Shown: in pieces, positions 23,101 to 29,100 of the stretch
Numbering within the stretch: position 1 is the stretch's first letter
Layout of the letters: every line of letters begins with the position of its first letter
NCBI RefSeq assembly: GCF_003334405.1
Contig: NZ_QOWM01000015.1
DNA from: Escherichia coli
GTDB taxonomy: Bacteria; Pseudomonadota; Gammaproteobacteria; Enterobacterales; Enterobacteriaceae
Reading direction: 5' to 3' (one strand)
Length of the DNA stretch: 64,000 bases
Position numbers: made by a program

Positions 23101-26100
23101 AAATACGCTTCGTGCAGAAGTTCAGAAAAATGGGGTTAGCTGTCAGCACAAATACGCTTCGCGCAAAAAAAAATCAGGAGGCTAAGTTGATCGGGAAAGC
23201 GAACACAGATACATGATTTACCCGTTTGCTGACTACGGCTCACGCCGGGACCCTTCGGAAAAACCCTTTCTGCTTCAGCGAGTGAGTGCTGCGGGCACTC
23301 AGAGGCGCTGCCAGGGAGACAAAATTAAGTTTTTCAACTGTTTGGTAAAAATAATTAACATTTATAGGTAGTCGGGGCGTAAGCCAGTGCGTAGCACGCT
23401 CTCAAAAAATATTCCTGTGGGTTTCTTATCTGCAATAGGGAAATAACTCAGATAATTGATATATGAAAAAACAATACAATCGGGAAGACACAACTTTAGC
23501 ACAGTAAAAGCTATTTGTATTTATGAGGAATAAAATATATATGAATAATAAAATATTTTTATTTTGCTATTGATTTTAATTTTTAAGATGATAGTACTTA
23601 ATTATAAAAACAAAATAATGGAGGAAATTATGAGTGCTATTAATGTGTTATCTCAGGAGGAAAAATTTATACATGTTGTTGATAAATTTATAACCCATAA
23701 TCACAACGGCGTTAATAACAATGTCTTTTATAAAAAACTTTATGTTCTCTTCGCCGGATATCATCTGAAGTATTTTTATTCACGGGCGCAATATCGCAAT
23801 TCGTGTTATCACGTTGATAATATCATGCAGATGTTTATGGGTGTCGTTTCTACCCTGAAGACCCCTCTGCTCAGGCAACTCGCAAACAGTGACACATTGC
23901 TGCATTGCCTGAATTCGCTCGTGAATTATATTTCAGGCAATCTGGATGAAGCAGAGCACATTTATGCTGATTTACTGGCACAGTATGAAAAGAAACGCAT
24001 TGCACGTTCTCTGGCTTATACACCACCAGGATCCGTGGTCAGGAAAAGACTGTGAGACATCGGAAATGCGCCGGACAAGGCAGAGTATGGCAGAGTGACA
24101 TAAAAGCAGTCGTTTCCCGCAAGATATTACCGGGCATTAAAAAGGCAGGATCCACCGATTTGGTGTCCTGCCTGGCGGGATTATTTTATTGTGGTCTTAC
24201 TTATCAACGACCTGCCAGCCATCATCTGTTTTGACCAGCTTGACAGCCGCTGTGCGTTTTTCGTTATCGACAACAGCTGTTACATTGCATTTATAGCTTT
24301 TATCCGATAGTTTTTCGCAGTCGTGTTTTTTGACTGATTTTAACTTCCGCAGCATGTCAGGCGTGATATCGTTTCTCGCTATGGATTTAACGATGGCATT
24401 CGTCTGCTCCACGACCTTATTCATCGCAGTGTAAATATCCTGCTCAGACGGTTCACTGGTGCAGCCGGTCAGCAAAAAAATGGACGCAATGAGTGTGGTA
24501 AATGCATATGTTTTCATAAAATAATCCCAGACGGTAGAGTACGTTATTGAAAAAGGCCGGTTTTCATCTTGCTGTTGTTTTCAGAGAACGTCCACTTGCT
24601 GACGGTTTCGCCTTTAAATTCGATTTCCAGCGTTTTGGCCTGCGTCTGTGAACCCCCGGTCAGCAGTCCAATCACGGGAATGAATGTGGTGGCATCAAAC
24701 TGATTGTTGTCCATCGAATAAGTCCATTGTTCATTGCCACTATCAAGTGTAGTTTTGGTTTCGGGCTGACCGAATGCGGTAATGATTTCTGATTTCGTTG
24801 TTTTATTTTTGATGATTTTCGACTGCAGACTTTGTGATGTTTCTTTTTTTAGATGCTGGTTGCCTGATGTTGAACAGCCAGAAATAAGTAAAGAAGAAAT
24901 AAAAAACACAGAAATCATGAATCTGTTCATAAGTTTTCTCATATTAATTTTTTATGTTTGCGGTGGTGTGAAATTAATATCATCTTATAAAAACAACTCT
25001 GTCTGCATATTTCTTTTTAATAATGCAGATAAGAATAATGACGCTGGCAAAAAACGTAATGACTGAGGCAGGAGTGCTGCCGGTCAATGAAAACACTAAC
25101 CAGGCGAGAGCTAATGCCACGAATTGAAACAGGAATGCCACACTGAGTGGACTTTCACCATAGGCCACTTTTGCATGGCAACCTTTGCAAACCCGCACAC
25201 CGTGTGGGCTTTGTGTAAAGCAGAAAGGGCAGCTAATCGTTTTATTATCCATCATGACTCCGTAGCCTGATTTAAGGTGATGTATTTTTGAACATTTTCG
25301 ATGAATGAACTGCTTTAGTAAAATTGCTTGTACCGATCGATGGATCTCAGGCGATAGGTTATATCTATTATAGCTAGATTATCGATCTATAAAAACGATC
25401 GATATCTTATTGACTATCACTAAAGTATGGACTAGCTAACTTATGGTGCAGGATGGTTGTTGTTTTTAAATGATTGTTCTTTATTGGTATTTGTTGTCAT
25501 GGGATGACAGGGTGTCAGAATATGTAGGTGGAGGATTTGGTGGAAAGGATGTGCAGTGGCATGTAACAGAGACATGCCTCTGCGCCTGAGAAGTGCCACA
25601 ATATGGACGAGCAATACAAGCCATGAATACAGACGACGCTGGCGGGGTATCTGACGAGCTGTATTGTGCAGATTGCTCCTGAGCTGGATGATACCCACTG
25701 TCTCCTGTTGTCTTTCCAGACGAATTTTTTCTTCAAGCTGATGGATTTTCTCCAGAATCGTTTCCCGGTTTGCAGCCTGCTCTTCAGACTCGCATGATGG
25801 CACTGGCACTGGCACTGGCACTGGCACTGGCACTGGCGCGGTTGTAGGTTCTATTGGCCTCTGGGCTTCTTTCAGTAAACTCAGATGCTCAGGCGTAAAA
25901 TCAATCAGTGCTTGCAGGGAAGACCAGCCATATTTTTTACCCAACTGAGATGCTTTAAAGGCAATACCCTGGTATTGAAATGAAAATCCACTCATTTTAC
26001 CCGTAGTGGCGATATTGGGTTTGCAGGTCACTCCTTCCTGTTCCAGTAAGCGAACAAAGGTTAGTAAATCGGGATGGTGTGTTAATGCATTGTCGAGCAG

Positions 26101-29100
26101 GGCCTGCAACAGTGACTTAGGGCAGGGAGCTGCTGTGCGTTCTGCCATCATCAGTTCATTACGGGAAGGCTTCCTTTTATCCTGGCGGCTACTGCCGGTT
26201 ACACCCGTAGTTTCGGTGAGGCCGTGTACTCTCTCCAGCTCACTGATAATCCGTGTGCCGATAAGATTTTCATTTTTCCCCAGGTACAGTTTTCCACCGA
26301 CCATGTTAATACGACTTGCAATGATATGAATATGCTGCCCATCCGGATCATCGTGCATGATATAGCAGCGAAGATGGGTGTCAGTGAAGCCCATTCGGGC
26401 CATATAATCGTCAGCGAATGCTGCCCACTGTCTGTTTGACAGTTTCTCACCCTTTGGCAGGCGAAGTGAATTATGCCAGACAGGTTTGGCGACATCGGGA
26501 CGCAGCAGTCGGGTGCCTTCAAATTCACTTATAAGCTCAGCAGCAGTGCTACCCGTCATGTTGCCACCGATGACATAAGGCGTGATTTTGTGGTGAGAAC
26601 CTGACTTCAGGCTATAAATAACCACACCTGTGAATTGTTTACCCCTTTTTATTTTCTGCATGCCTTTCATGGGTCTGACTCCAGAAATGTTGAGGGAATA
26701 AGGTGATCCCTGAGAGTTTTGATTTGTCTGCGCAGGGCGAAGAGTTCTGTACGGGTCAGTTCGCTGTCAGGGCTTTTGCTGTCGAGATGACTCAACAGGT
26801 AGTTTAAATCCTGTGAAAGGCTGCCAAGTTTTATCCATGCTTCACGATTGATTTCTGGCAGAACCGGCGGGAGTTTATTCAGGGAAGCCATCCTGAGCCA
26901 TTCTCCTTTTTTATACTGACCTCTTTTACTGTCGAGAATAATTAATTCTTCTTCATTTAATCTGACACTGATGCAGTGATGTCGTATTTCATTCTCAGGA
27001 AATTTGTCAGTATGGAATTTACCGCGTTTTGATACTCTGGTTATATCATCATCATTACTCATGTCACTGTTCATAGTTATCCTTTTATTTCATGTTTATT
27101 ACTACAGATAACCGATGAAATGAATAAGTCAAGTTGTTACGGGATAAATAATTTAATTATCTGGATTAAAAAAGGTATACCATTTGACAAATAGTATACC
27201 CACGAGGACATATCAGATTAATGGTCATTAAATGAATCCTTGCAGACTAAGAAAAGGGTTGTTTACTCCAGAGTTTTAGAGTCTTTTTCGTACAGATGAA
27301 CGGGGGATCTCTGGCTTCATTTCTTTTAACAGGTCTTTTTTCTCTCTTGCTGCGATATAAGAAAAAATCTTATCGGAGTCAGAACGCTGTCTGAGTATAT
27401 CGTCGTCCATTCGGATACCATTTCGAATGAACCATTTCACACTTTCTATGCCGGTGTAGATACCAATATGTTTATCATGATAACAATTATAAAACTGAAC
27501 ATGACTGATATCGGTATATTTTTTCAGTGAGGTAAAGAAGTACTTCATGTTTTTGACATATAATGCGAAGGAACAGTGTTCAGCGATAAGGATATTACGC
27601 CCTTTTTCATGAAGCAAAGCAATTAGAGGCAAAGCCTCAGTTGAAACATGTTTAAATAATACTGGCGTGCTGTCTATTCTATCAACATGGCGTTTGAGGG
27701 CATTAATACTGAAATCATATATCCACCACTCGTTGTCAGTCGGAAGATCCAGCACCGCTTTGCCACCATAATCTCTGTGGTTTATGTCACACCCTTTATT
27801 TACCCAGTAATCAAAGACGTCATGATCGAGGAGGTCATAAAGAAGCGTTTGTCCTTCGTTATCTGTGCTGTGGATATCAATGCCCGCGTTTATGAGGAGT
27901 TCCGCACAATCTATGGCGTAGCGCTGCCAGTGAAGACAGGACTGGCCTTTATTATTTTTGTGGTGAACGTTAATACCTGACTTTATCAATAGCCTCACTG
28001 CACGTGGGCTTTTTCTGCTAAACAGGGCATTATTACCATAACAATCTGTATGGTTCAGCGCTATGCCTGCTTCAATCATGGCTTTTAAAGCCCCGATACT
28101 GTCGCAACCGAAAAGGGCGTTTTCACCGTGTTCATTAAGTGTGTTAATGTCAATGCCTGCAGCAATGCAATTCTGGACGTCTTTTTTAGTTTTGCTGTCA
28201 AATAAATTATCTTCTGTATAGTTACTCATGGGCGTTCTCCTTTTTAAGCGGTCGTTTTGTGCCAGGTATTATTGTTGTATTCATATTCTTTTATCTTAAT
28301 GATCTCGTCATAGATCCGTGAAAAAGAAAACCATGAGATCTCTTTCACTTCGCCTTTTTTGTTTGTGTAAATGATATTGCAGCCACGAAAAGAAAATGAC
28401 TGATAGAAAGTATCGTGATTCTCCTCTTTAAGAAAACGGGTAAAAGCTTTTATGGTGTCTTTTTTTTCCATGCTATAAGAGAAAAAGGTATGGATAGCAA
28501 ATATGGTCAGAATATTTCTTTCCGTCACCATATGTCTGGAAAAATAATTAAGATAAAAAACATGATCTTCAATGCTATTTTTACAGAATATTGAAAAGTG
28601 AGGGTTATACAGACGGTAGAGATCTGTATTCTTTTTTGTTTTAGATAGGTAACTTGTCAGGGTTGAATAGTTTTGTTTTTTCATTTTTATTCTCCTTTAT
28701 TATTTTGATGAAATGAATGTATATTATCAAATAAATAAAAATCAAATTTATTTTTAATAATAAAAAATAAGCAAGCGTTTTCTTTTGAATAAACTAATTT
28801 AATGTGATGTTTTATATAAATAAATTCATAGTTTGCAAAAAGTGCTATTTTTATTTCATGGTTGATTGATGGGCGTTTTTCCCCATTGCTTAGGGGGAAA
28901 TATATCCCATTAATATTAAATGTTTGAAGTGAATCGTATTTTAGCAGGGGAATATTATATCTTTTACTTCTGTTTTGATTTTCAACTTTGTGTGTGAGAC
29001 ACAATATGTGATAGTGTTGTGATAATCGTAAGTATCCTGCCAAAACGAATCATTCACTTTAAACCTTTACTGACATATTGGTTATATATTCTGAGAAATT

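What the first reader, a model, noticed from the sequence alone, without database searches (positions are those of the whole stretch)
25441..27275. MobC-MobA relaxase module with a candidate oriT: the island looks mobilizable
An ATGA-overlapping pair: a MobC-like accessory protein and a MobA/VirD2-type relaxase (histidine triad QHIHIIASRIN). The AT-rich region upstream of mobC carries two GTATACC repeats about 12 nt apart (27173-27200) that could be relaxosome binding sites. With the integrase and AlpA this fits an integrative mobilizable element that uses a helper conjugative system.
Basis: partly seen in the sequence, partly recalled or inferred. Interest (0 to 1): 0.45.

Follow-up and report, generated by a model that had tools for sequence, protein, structure and literature searches.

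The report
Island relaxase module; transfer origin lies elsewhere

Summary
The gene pair is real. ORF 25441-26670(-) is a MobA/VirD2-type relaxase (Pfam PF03432, E 3.5e-22). Tyr19 and His106/113/115 are conserved in 150 family representatives. ORF 26667-27074(-) overlaps it by ATGA and is 42% identical to MobC of the IncQ plasmid pGNB2, though it does not reach Pfam MobC or NikA-like significance itself.

The module sits in a 20.4-kb island bounded by the ssrA 3' end (39454-39468) and a degenerate copy (19011-19024). A P4-type integrase lies at one end and AlpA-DUF6387 at the other. No transfer machinery is present, so this is an integrative mobilizable element.

The "two GTATACC repeats" are the arms of a 13-nt inverted repeat followed by T6. 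This looks like a terminator, and its sequence is not conserved in sister alleles.

Relatives across the family carry a different conserved element just upstream of the accessory gene. It consists of AGCAAGGGCTAAC plus a compensated inverted repeat, and it matches the putative IncQ-3 oriT TTACACCTTGCT. The window has one perfect copy at 33715-33727(-), 6.6 kb upstream on the same strand, with defence cargo in between. I consider this the likelier oriT.

This is a new member of a known kind, and mobilization is untested.

The parts
25441..26670 (-). Relaxase gene (409 aa). It has an N-terminal HUH relaxase domain (about residues 1-260), a Pro-Val repeat, and a family-specific C-terminal tail.
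   Evidence: Pfam PF03432 E 3.5e-22. Y19, H106, H113 and H115 are >=90% conserved in 150 representatives. Full-length homologues at 83-99% identity occur in many Enterobacteriaceae chromosomes. The N-terminal 250 aa are 43% identical to IncQ-3 plasmid relaxases. MOB-suite types three such plasmids, pGNB2, pWES-1 and pGXY040, as MOBP.
26667..27074 (-). Relaxosome accessory gene (135 aa), probably ribbon-helix-helix, MobC/NikA-like. It overlaps the relaxase start by ATGA.
   Evidence: BLASTP 42% identity over 86 aa to pGNB2 MobC, E 9e-22. Pfam NikA-like only E 0.14 for this protein. Among 13 relatives, NikA-like reaches E<=0.001 in 2 (best 4e-10) and MobC in 1. The gene is always adjacent to the relaxase in 30 loci. 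The AlphaFold model shows helices 41-50 and 56-64 after an extended segment, then two long helices; pLDDT 71, pTM 0.36.
27098..27133 (-). Conserved promoter-like block (CTTGACTTATT...TATCTGTAGTAAT) upstream of the accessory gene.
   Evidence: This is the most conserved non-coding block in alignments of 4 and 13 alleles. TTGAC sits 57-61 nt from the ATG in the window-type alleles that carry it. The simple sigma-70 scan did not call it.
27174..27200 (.). On the minus strand it is a hairpin followed by T6. Most likely it is the terminator of the upstream ankyrin gene, and possibly also an operator.
   Evidence: Alleles L005, L002 and L020 have unrelated hairpins at the same place. In L020 the hairpin starts 5 nt after an inserted cargo gene.
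27233..27246 (-). Conserved block GTCTGCAAGGATTCA on the mob-sense strand (+ strand TGAATCCTTGCAGAC). It weakly resembles the family nick-region motif. Its significance is unknown.
   Evidence: The block is conserved in 9 of 13 aligned alleles. It did not reach a positive score against the family motif matrix.
33655..33735 (-). Family-type oriT-like element. It has the motif AGCAAGGGCTAAC (33727-33715 on the minus strand; + strand GTTAGCCCTTGCT), an inner inverted repeat AACCC/GGGTT (33717-33713 and 33686-33682), outer arms 33667-33680 and 33720-33733, and a CCCTTGCTTTTCTTCCCTTCGGTT tail. The predicted nicked strand is +, with nic by analogy after G33725.
   Evidence: It is the single best match to the motif matrix in 64 kb: 23.5 bits against 14.3 for the next. 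The same element lies about 0.1-0.2 kb upstream of the accessory gene in most more distant family loci and in IncQ-3 plasmids, with compensatory changes in the repeat. It matches the putative IncQ-3 oriT 5'-TTACACCTTGCT-3' (PMC7557826). The single-stranded DNA fold is -14.7 kcal/mol, z -2.9. The nic position is inferred, not shown.
33768..33787 (.). Perfect 10+10 palindrome CTTCGCTTGT/ACAAGCGAAG next to the oriT-like element.
   Evidence: It is conserved in L042, and in L043 with one base changed. Function unknown.
38059..39288 (-). P4-type tyrosine integrase next to ssrA.
   Evidence: Pfam Arm-DNA-bind_3, Phage_int_M and Phage_integrase. RefSeq annotation of the near-identical strain agrees.
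39454..39468 (+). att-like repeat at the 3' end of ssrA (TTGGTGGAGCTGGCG). This is the island's ssrA-proximal border.
19011..19024 (+). Degenerate distal att-like repeat (TTGGTGG-GCTGGCG, 1-nt deletion). This is the island's far border.
   Evidence: The pattern matches only these two sites in 64 kb, against 0 expected.
20435..20641 (+). AlpA-family regulator, the likely recombination directionality factor.
   Evidence: Pfam Phage_AlpA E 1.6e-19. The AlpA-DUF6387 pair also ends EARL/ROD21-like islands (PMC10763509). An AlpA-family homologue, SEN1998, binds att regions in ROD21 (PMC8844411).
19307..20152 (+). DUF6387 gene, a conserved partner of alpA at the island end.
34441..37782 (-). Large serine recombinase plus two ParB-like genes. 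They are backbone genes between the integrase and the oriT-like element, and would form the leading region if the + strand is nicked.
   Evidence: NCBIfam hits. The same block accompanies the oriT-like element in L041, L042 and L044.

Best explanation
The finding is the mobilization module of a roughly 20.4-kb integrative mobilizable element (window 19025-39453) inserted at the 3' end of ssrA.

The relaxase is an HUH enzyme of the MobA/VirD2 (MOBP-like, IncQ-3-related) type. Its 135-aa partner is a probable ribbon-helix-helix accessory protein. The two genes are translationally coupled and are driven by a conserved promoter-like block.

Inferred mechanism. After AlpA- and integrase-dependent excision, the accessory protein and relaxase assemble at an oriT. 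Tyr19 nicks one strand and becomes covalently attached to it. The complex is then exported through the type IV secretion system of a co-resident conjugative plasmid or ICE.

The oriT is most likely the family-conserved element at about 33655-33735, not the GTATACC hairpin beside the genes. That element lies 6.6 kb upstream on the same strand and is separated from the mob operon by variable defence-type cargo. The GTATACC hairpin is most simply the intrinsic terminator of the inserted ankyrin gene, and possibly also an operator.

Shown here: gene integrity, catalytic residues, homology, island borders, and conservation and covariation of the distant element. Inferred: nicking site and strand, the cognate relationship between this relaxase and the distant element, helper dependence, and actual mobility.
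For: The relaxase domain and catalytic residues are present. The accessory protein is homologous to pGNB2 MobC, and its relatives hit NikA-like and MobC. The accessory-relaxase pair is syntenic in 30 loci. The nearest plasmid relatives are typed MOBP and mobilizable.

The island has an integrase, AlpA and att-like repeats. The same layout, integrase ... mob ... alpA-DUF6387, occurs in L024, L030, L042 and L044.

The motif plus inverted repeat lies next to the accessory gene in most more distant family loci, including ones where the upstream gene is divergent (L004, L027), so it is not merely a terminator there. It equals the reverse complement of the published putative IncQ-3 oriT. The window has exactly one perfect copy, on the mob strand.

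The distance from motif to accessory gene is graded across loci: about 0.14 kb (L044), 1.4 kb (L020), 2.3 kb (L043), 3.75 kb (L018), 6.6 kb (window) and 10.8 kb (L042). Different cargo sits in between each time.

The inner repeat shows a double compensatory change between two E. coli alleles: AACTC/GAGTT in L042 and AACCC/GGGTT in the window. The two E. coli relaxase alleles (84% identical) share this element at about 93% identity, but share no hairpin sequence upstream of the accessory gene. No remnant of a second accessory or relaxase gene lies next to the distant element.
Against: No experiment exists for this family, and I cannot show that this relaxase nicks either site.

Compact versions of the module carry an intact relaxase and the same GGTATAC hairpin but have no canonical motif within 21 kb. 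These are L014 at tRNA-Leu, which has a full-length integrase, and K. pneumoniae L009-L011, which have none or only an integrase fragment. If those versions are mobile, their oriT must be local.

The region 27201-27250 contains non-coding blocks conserved down to 59% relaxase identity, including a weak GCAAGG-type resemblance.

The distal att copy has a 1-nt deletion, so the island may no longer excise.

MOB class was not determined with MOBscan or CONJscan. NCBIfam relaxase hits are far below their curated cut-offs.
Confidence: 0.62

Rival explanations
1. The oriT lies in the 200-bp region immediately upstream of the accessory gene (27075-27275). The GTATACC inverted repeat is the relaxosome (accessory-protein) binding site, and a nic site lies nearby. 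One candidate is the + strand TGAATCCTTG|C at 27233-27243.
For: This is the usual oriT location, and the one used by current oriT-discovery pipelines (bioRxiv 10.64898/2026.01.13.699239). An inverted repeat occupies the same position in four diverged alleles. Conserved non-coding blocks flank it. Compact islands L014 and L009-L011 keep this region and lack the canonical motif. The accessory protein varies at one residue of the putative DNA-reading strand between alleles that carry different hairpins (RHH, RTH, RNH).
Against: The hairpin sequence is not conserved between alleles whose relaxases are 84% identical. It is followed by a T-run and is called terminator-like. In L020 the equivalent hairpin directly follows an inserted gene, while the canonical motif sits 1.4 kb further upstream. 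The family nick-region motif is absent here, with no positive matrix score. The strand-residue correlation does not hold: L016 shares RTH with L005-type but not its hairpin, and the Pantoea group carries RIH, RTH, RSH and RKH with one shared element. There is no similarity to any plasmid sequence.
Confidence: 0.2
2. The module is a decaying, no longer mobile remnant. The genes look intact, but the island is fixed in the chromosome and the relaxase has no usable oriT or att pair.
For: The distal att copy carries a 1-nt deletion. IS fragments and pseudogenes lie in and around the island. Sister islands are truncated by IS elements (L041) or reduced to integrase-less remnants (K. pneumoniae L010/L011). 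L037 has only the first 43 relaxase codons. All 206 E. coli occurrences are chromosomal.
Against: The relaxase and accessory protein are full-length, with all catalytic residues, in many genera at 83-99% identity. The same backbone occurs at different chromosomal sites (ssrA, tRNA-Leu, next to mutS, near pao) and in different genera, which implies recent mobility. The oriT-like element is conserved with compensatory changes.
Confidence: 0.25
3. The distant oriT-like element belongs to a different, fused element (integrase, serine recombinase, two ParB genes, oriT) that lost its own relaxase. On this view it is not recognised by the window's relaxase.
For: The element occurs in 610 E. coli genomes against about 200 with the relaxase region. 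The relaxases that have this motif directly adjacent are only 43-62% identical to the window's. The DUF6387-to-p146 block exists on its own in L014 and L009.
Against: No trace of a second accessory or relaxase gene lies between 28600 and 34500. L044 has the serine recombinase, both ParB genes, the oriT, the accessory gene, the relaxase, alpA, DUF6387 and an integrase in one element. There is always exactly one strong (>=19-bit) motif copy per locus, on the mob strand and upstream of the operon. The graded spacing series points to cargo insertion rather than fusion.
Confidence: 0.15

Closest known systems
MobC-MobA/RepB mobilization module of IncQ-3 plasmids (pGNB2, pBRST7.6, pWES-1)
   Same: The accessory gene overlaps the relaxase gene. 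The accessory protein is 42% identical and the relaxase N-domain about 43% identical. The putative oriT core TTACACCTTGCT corresponds to the window's GTTAGCCCTTGCT and is followed by an inverted repeat. MOB-suite types pGNB2, pWES-1 and pGXY040 as MOBP and mobilizable.
   Different: The window's module is chromosomal and integrative. Its relaxase is not fused to a primase and has an unrelated C-terminal 150 aa with a Pro-Val repeat. Its oriT-like element lies 6.6 kb from the operon rather than about 120 nt.
NikA-NikB (R64) and TraJ-TraI (RP4) relaxosomes, MOBP
   Same: From established knowledge of these systems, a small accessory protein (ribbon-helix-helix in NikA) binds an inverted-repeat arm next to the nic site, and the relaxase has an N-terminal Tyr and a three-His motif. 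Relatives of the accessory protein hit Pfam NikA-like. NCBIfam TraI_MobP_relax gives a weak hit.
   Different: Sequence similarity is low and all hits fall below family cut-offs. The exact YATCCTG nick consensus is absent. These systems are self-transmissible plasmids with their own T4SS.
Relaxase-only integrative mobilizable elements ('iMOB' class; PIMEs)
   Same: They combine an integrase, AlpA, a relaxase and defence cargo, have no T4SS, and depend on a helper. They are abundant in E. coli chromosomes, and the tmRNA locus is a known IME hotspot.
   Different: PIMEs are defined by repA, trbJ and trbL, which I did not find here. The backbone here is a serine recombinase, two ParB genes, an ankyrin gene, small lipoproteins and DUF6387.
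EARL / ROD21-like excisable islands (ROD21, ICEKp258.2)
   Same: A P4-type integrase sits at one end, and an AlpA-family RDF followed by a DUF6387 gene at the other, with a relaxase in between. The RDF role of the AlpA homologue has been studied.
   Different: EARL islands integrate at Asn tRNA genes and carry TraD, a MobQ-family relaxase of about 500 aa, type IV pilus genes and an H-NS-like gene. None of these is present here.
CP4-57 cryptic prophage of E. coli K-12
   Same: From my own knowledge, it occupies the same chromosomal site (ssrA ... ypjA) and is the source of the AlpA family name.
   Different: From my own knowledge, CP4-57 has no relaxase module. The gene content here is otherwise unrelated.

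Membership tests
MobA/VirD2-type HUH relaxase (Pfam PF03432; MOBP/MOBQ superfamily) | Significant match to the relaxase nuclease domain | tested here: met
   PF03432 E 3.5e-22, residues 32-151, covering model positions 12-132 of 132.
MobA/VirD2-type HUH relaxase (Pfam PF03432; MOBP/MOBQ superfamily) | N-terminal catalytic tyrosine (motif I) | tested here: met
   Y19 in GVVIYSLK is >=90% conserved across 150 representatives. Its catalytic role is inferred.
MobA/VirD2-type HUH relaxase (Pfam PF03432; MOBP/MOBQ superfamily) | Three-histidine metal-binding motif H-x-D-x(5)-H-x-H | tested here: met
   MHDDPDGQHIHI: H106, H113 and H115 are >=90% conserved.
MobA/VirD2-type HUH relaxase (Pfam PF03432; MOBP/MOBQ superfamily) | Assignment to a MOB class with MOBscan/CONJscan profiles | not testable with these tools
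   Only indirect evidence is available. The three nearest plasmid homologues examined are typed MOBP by MOB-suite. NCBIfam MobP, MobB and MbpB hits fall far below their cut-offs.
MobA/VirD2-type HUH relaxase (Pfam PF03432; MOBP/MOBQ superfamily) | Site- and strand-specific nicking at a cognate oriT | not testable with these tools
   This needs biochemistry or a mobilization assay.
MobC (Pfam PF05713) / NikA-like (PF21983) relaxosome accessory proteins | Significant match of this protein to the family profile | tested here: not met
   The window protein scores NikA-like E 0.14 and has no MobC hit. It has no NCBIfam hit.
MobC (Pfam PF05713) / NikA-like (PF21983) relaxosome accessory proteins | Homology to an accepted family member | tested here: met
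   42% identity, E 9e-22, to pGNB2 MobC. Among 13 aligned relatives, NikA-like reaches E<=0.001 in 2 (best 4e-10) and MobC in 1.
MobC (Pfam PF05713) / NikA-like (PF21983) relaxosome accessory proteins | Ribbon-helix-helix fold | tested here: inconclusive
   The monomer AlphaFold model has an extended segment, then helices 41-50 and 56-64, which is compatible. However pTM is 0.36 and no strand was called. Foldseek against PDB gave nothing significant, and there was no PDB sequence hit.
MobC (Pfam PF05713) / NikA-like (PF21983) relaxosome accessory proteins | Gene immediately upstream of, and coupled to, the relaxase gene | tested here: met
   There is an ATGA overlap, and the two genes are adjacent in 30 loci.
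Integrative mobilizable element (IME) | Site-specific integrase and flanking att repeats | tested here: met
   The tyrosine integrase is confirmed. The repeat TTGGTGG(A)GCTGGCG lies at 39454-39468 and 19011-19024, and the distal copy is degenerate.
Integrative mobilizable element (IME) | Own relaxase and/or oriT | tested here: met
   The relaxase is confirmed. The oriT-like element at 33655-33735 is identified by homology. Its function is not shown.
Integrative mobilizable element (IME) | No complete mating-pair formation system or coupling protein | tested here: met
   The RefSeq annotation of the near-identical island lists none. The only ORF above 520 aa is a NACHT/STAND-type protein. PHROGs, PADLOC and NCBIfam scans found no T4SS component.
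Integrative mobilizable element (IME) | Excision and helper-dependent transfer | not testable with these tools
   This needs excision PCR and mating assays.
PIME family (bioRxiv 10.64898/2026.01.12.698999) | Co-occurrence of integrase, alpA, a replicase and trbJ/trbL | tested here: not met
   I found no repA, trbJ or trbL among the island genes.

The most novel reading that the evidence does not exclude
In this widespread enterobacterial IME family, the oriT has been uncoupled from its relaxase operon by a cargo-insertion hotspot. The spacing ranges from 0.14 to 10.8 kb, and the gap is filled with different defence-type genes. Two consequences would follow. First, the standard rule that the oriT is the first intergenic region upstream of the relaxase would mis-assign it. 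Second, the roughly 400 E. coli genomes that keep the oriT-like element without a detectable relaxase region would be oriT-only hitchers, mobilizable in trans by sibling islands.
Probability: 0.45. Interest if true: 0.5.

Novelty: new member of a known kind. Interest (0 to 1): 0.35.

Why it matters
Relaxase-bearing islands are a common but poorly characterised route for moving defence and virulence cargo between enterobacteria. This example is a clean, apparently intact module with defined borders. It also offers a concrete, testable oriT candidate shared with IncQ-3 plasmids and present in about 11% of complete E. coli genomes. If the distant element is the real oriT, oriT-prediction pipelines that look only beside the relaxase would mislabel this family. 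The variable segment between oriT and the mob operon would then be a defined cargo hotspot. Otherwise the finding is an ordinary mobilizable island.

Tried and rejected
- PDB sequence searches with the relaxase and with the accessory profile gave nothing useful.
- The AlphaFold model of the accessory protein had low pTM, and Foldseek against PDB gave only noise.
- A search for the RP4-type nick consensus YATCCTGY in the intergenic regions of the window, pGNB2 and a Pseudomonas plasmid found nothing. Looser patterns gave only uninformative hits.
- BLASTN of the local intergenic region, and of the Pantoea-type intergenic region, against 72,556 plasmids found no match.
- An exact-word search for an attR copy of the ssrA end failed. 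A gapped pattern then found the degenerate copy.
- I considered that the relaxase C-terminus might be frameshifted. I rejected this because full-length homologues cover 100% of the query.
- I considered PIME membership and rejected it, because there is no repA, trbJ or trbL.
- I looked for a correlation between the accessory protein's putative DNA-reading strand residue and the hairpin sequence. It does not hold: L016 shares RTH with L005-type but not its hairpin, and the Pantoea group has varied residues with one shared element.

Full report
**Context.** The window is E. coli chromosome. It is 99.9% identical to NZ_CP106929 over two blocks that together span window 5292-49422, except that 29617-32890 is replaced there by IS3. 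The finding lies between ssrA (39455-39817, minus strand) and ypjA and ileY. This is the site that CP4-57 occupies in K-12 (my own knowledge).

**The observation.** ORFs 26667-27074 and 25441-26670 lie on the minus strand and overlap by ATGA. The 409-aa product matches Pfam PF03432, the MobA/VirD2-like nuclease domain, at E 3.5e-22. I aligned it with 150 representatives from a 1.84-billion-protein library; that search gave 3570 hits, 593 of them below 1e-30. In the alignment Tyr19, His106, His113 and His115 (MHDDPDGQHIHI) are each at least 90% conserved.

Homology to other families stops at about residue 260. The C-terminal 150 aa, which includes a Pro-Val repeat, is specific to a chromosomal enterobacterial clade. 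Members of that clade are full-length at 83-99% identity in Escherichia, Klebsiella, Enterobacter, Salmonella, Citrobacter, Raoultella and Cronobacter. The gene is therefore not truncated.

The best plasmid relatives are IncQ-3 plasmids such as pGNB2, at 43% identity over 250 aa. MOB-suite types pGNB2, pWES-1 and pGXY040 as MOBP and mobilizable.

**The accessory protein.** It has no significant Pfam or NCBIfam hit of its own; NikA-like scores E 0.14. NCBI sources mostly call it 'ATP-binding protein' or 'hypothetical'. It is nevertheless 42% identical to pGNB2 MobC, with E 9e-22. Among 13 aligned relatives, two reach NikA-like significance (best 4e-10) and one reaches MobC. Its core, RxHC(V/I)SVRLNxEEL..LDxKRG...KGEWLRMASL, has the strand-helix-helix pattern of ribbon-helix-helix proteins. 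The AlphaFold model is compatible with that fold but weak. 'MobC-like' is acceptable as a loose functional label. Strict family membership is not met for this sequence.

**The island.** The sequence TTGGTGGAGCTGGCG at the ssrA 3' end (39454-39468) recurs once, with a 1-nt deletion, at 19011-19024. None is expected by chance. This bounds a 20.4-kb element.

From ssrA inward the element carries:
- a P4-type tyrosine integrase;
- a large serine recombinase and two ParB-like genes;
- a 1-kb ORF-free stretch;
- a RelA/SpoT-like gene and a NACHT/STAND gene with an NA-iREase2 domain;
- a restriction-enzyme fragment;
- a 146-aa gene and an ankyrin gene;
- the accessory-relaxase pair;
- a 90-aa zinc-ribbon membrane protein and two lipoproteins;
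- several small genes, then AlpA and DUF6387.

No T4SS or coupling protein is present. The same backbone recurs at ssrA in another E. coli allele (L042), elsewhere in E. coli (L043 next to mutS and L044 near pao), and in other genera. The IME reading is therefore well supported. It also matches the published observation that the tmRNA locus is an IME hotspot (PMC10121019) and that relaxase-only integrative elements are abundant.

**The candidate oriT next to the genes.** The two GTATACC copies are the arms of a 13-nt inverted repeat at 27174-27186 and 27188-27200, 12/13 complementary. On the mob-sense strand the repeat is a hairpin of -13.6 kcal/mol followed by TTTTTT, lying about 75 nt after the ankyrin stop codon. 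The terminator scan flags it.

Other alleles have hairpins of unrelated sequence at the same position:
- GAGCAGATT/AATCTGCTC in the 84%-identical E. coli allele;
- AATGAGTAAGAGATTT/AAACCTCTCACTCATT in a Salmonella contig;
- TAACGAGCC/GGCTCGTTA in L020.

What stays conserved is a promoter-like block, CTTGACTTATT...CTGTAGTAAT. A hairpin whose structure is kept while its sequence changes freely between relaxases 84% identical is what a terminator would show. It is not what a nick-site-proximal recognition repeat would show.

**A better candidate further away.** In more distant family members, with relaxases 43-62% identical, the region upstream of the accessory gene contains a strongly conserved element: AGC[AC]AGG[GT][CG]TAAC, followed immediately by an inverted repeat and then CCTTGCTTTT..CCCTTCGGTT. 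These members come from Pantoea, Erwinia, Rahnella, K. michiganensis, Pseudomonas, a Gallionellales MAG, and IncQ-type plasmids.

The element is present even where the upstream gene is divergent (L004, L027), so there it cannot be only a terminator.

The repeat shows compensatory variants: AACTC/GAGTT, AACCC/GGGTT, AACTT/AAGTT, AACCA/TGGTT and AACC/GGTT. Four different fully paired extensions occur in Pseudomonas.

In pGNB2 the motif reads AGCAAGGTGTAA. That is the reverse complement of 5'-TTACACCTTGCT-3', which a study of 29 IncQ-3 plasmids gives as the conserved putative oriT core (PMC7557826).

A position matrix built from 15 sites finds one outstanding match in the 64-kb window. AGCAAGGGCTAAC at 33715-33727 on the minus strand scores 23.5 bits, against 14.3 for the next best. 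It has the full flanking architecture. It lies in the ORF-free stretch after parB, on the same strand as the mob operon and 6.6 kb upstream of it.

**Linking the distant element to this mob module.** Across loci the motif occurs once as a strong (>=19-bit) match wherever it is found, always upstream of the operon and on its strand. Its distance from the accessory gene is graded:

| Locus | Distance | Cargo in between |
|---|---|---|
| L044 | about 0.14 kb | none |
| L020 | 1.4 kb | one 370-aa gene, followed by its own hairpin |
| L043 | 2.3 kb | a DUF4209 gene |
| L018 | 3.75 kb | a 900-aa gene |
| window | 6.6 kb | STAND, RelA/SpoT-like, REase fragment and ankyrin genes |
| L042 | 10.8 kb | type I R-M, IS1, ankyrin genes |

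This series fits repeated cargo insertion between the oriT and the mob promoter. No vestige of a second accessory or relaxase gene lies near the element. The window and L042 alleles share the element at about 93% identity, and their inner repeats differ by a double compensatory change.

By analogy with other MOBP systems, the nicked strand would be the one antisense to the mob genes, which is the window's + strand. The nic would fall near GTTAGCCCTTG|CT, 8 nt past the inner repeat. The ParB genes, serine recombinase and integrase would then enter the recipient first. These points are inference.

**Counter-evidence.** Compact versions of the module lack the canonical motif within the 21 kb available, yet keep the GGTATAC hairpin region almost unchanged. 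These are L014 at tRNA-Leu, which has a full-length integrase beside DUF6387, and K. pneumoniae L009-L011, which have no integrase or only a fragment. They share the same chromosomal neighbours across genera, so they may be immobile deletion derivatives. If they are mobile, a local oriT must exist.

The local region also holds conserved blocks, such as GTCTG(A/C)AAGG(A/T)TT(C/T)A at 27233-27246, that faintly resemble the nick motif.

**Distribution and novelty.** The oriT-like element occurs in 610 of 5426 complete E. coli genomes. All copies are chromosomal. The relaxase region occurs in 204 genomes. At least one island has kept the element after an IS2-associated loss of the mob module (L041). 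Neither intergenic region matches any plasmid, in line with the report that chromosomal oriTs differ from plasmid ones.

The class is known. These are relaxase-only IMEs that carry defence cargo, with an AlpA/DUF6387 excision end like that of EARL islands. I found no experimental work on this particular family. The element is not a PIME.

I rate it a new member of a known kind. It has one useful nuance: the probable oriT is displaced from the relaxase, which would mislead methods that take the first intergenic region upstream of the relaxase.

Noticed in passing
window 23032-23165: Three tandem copies of a 49-bp unit (75-81% identical) lie in the non-coding gap between the 187-aa and 141-aa genes of the conserved module. 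They look iteron-like, and their function is unknown.
   Followed up: no
window 25798-25839: A hexanucleotide repeat, (TGGCAC)n on the + strand, encodes the Pro-Val run in the relaxase. Homologues range from 399 to 413 aa, and some E. coli strains carry 36-42 extra bases here, so the copy number varies.
   Followed up: partly
window 24980-25255 (-): A 90-aa protein with a CxxC...CxxC zinc ribbon and hydrophobic segments lies just downstream of the relaxase. It is more conserved than the relaxase itself: 76-98% identity in most loci, including ones where the relaxase is only 51-59% identical (L016 is the exception at 51%). It matches no known family.
   Followed up: partly
window 24197-24942 (-): Two small lipoprotein genes travel with the mob module. 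One hits phrog_3135 (unknown function), and the other weakly resembles Cor superinfection-exclusion proteins. They may have an exclusion or surface function.
   Followed up: no
window 29617-33388: The cargo differs from the otherwise identical strain NZ_CP106929, which has IS3 in its place. It comprises a 704-aa NA-iREase2 plus NACHT-like STAND protein and a 301-aa RelA/SpoT-like protein, next to a 90-aa C-terminal fragment of a type II restriction enzyme at 29266-29538. This is probably an uncharacterised defence pair.
   Followed up: partly
window 39289-39345 and 19087-19107: GGGACCC/GGGTCCC-type motifs repeat between the integrase start and ssrA. A similar palindrome, TGGTCCTAAAAAGGAACCA, lies just inside the distal island border. 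They may be integrase-arm or AlpA binding sites.
   Followed up: no
window 33768-33787: A perfect 10+10 palindrome, CTTCGCTTGT/ACAAGCGAAG, lies about 40 nt from the oriT-like motif. It is conserved in L042, and in L043 with one base changed.
   Followed up: partly
L014 7990-18038; L009-L011: A compact version of the module, about 10 kb, sits next to a bgl-type operon in Pseudocitrobacter and K. pneumoniae. L014 has a full-length integrase beside tRNA-Leu(CAA). The K. pneumoniae loci have none or only a fragment. No canonical oriT motif is present in any of them.
   Followed up: partly
window 26667-27074: Many NCBI records name the accessory protein 'ATP-binding protein'. That name has no support in any profile search here.
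   Followed up: yes
window 11160-11235: ARAGORN calls this gene tRNA-Met (anticodon CAT), but RefSeq annotates the same gene as tRNA-Ile. From my own knowledge, this is the usual ileX/ileY case of a lysidine-modified CAT anticodon.
   Followed up: no
L041 (NZ_CP086532) 14471-30248: A sister island at ssrA keeps the integrase, serine recombinase, two ParB genes, the oriT-like element and a type I R-M system. It ends at an IS2 and has lost the whole mob module and the distal chromosome segment up to the amylase pseudogene.
   Followed up: partly
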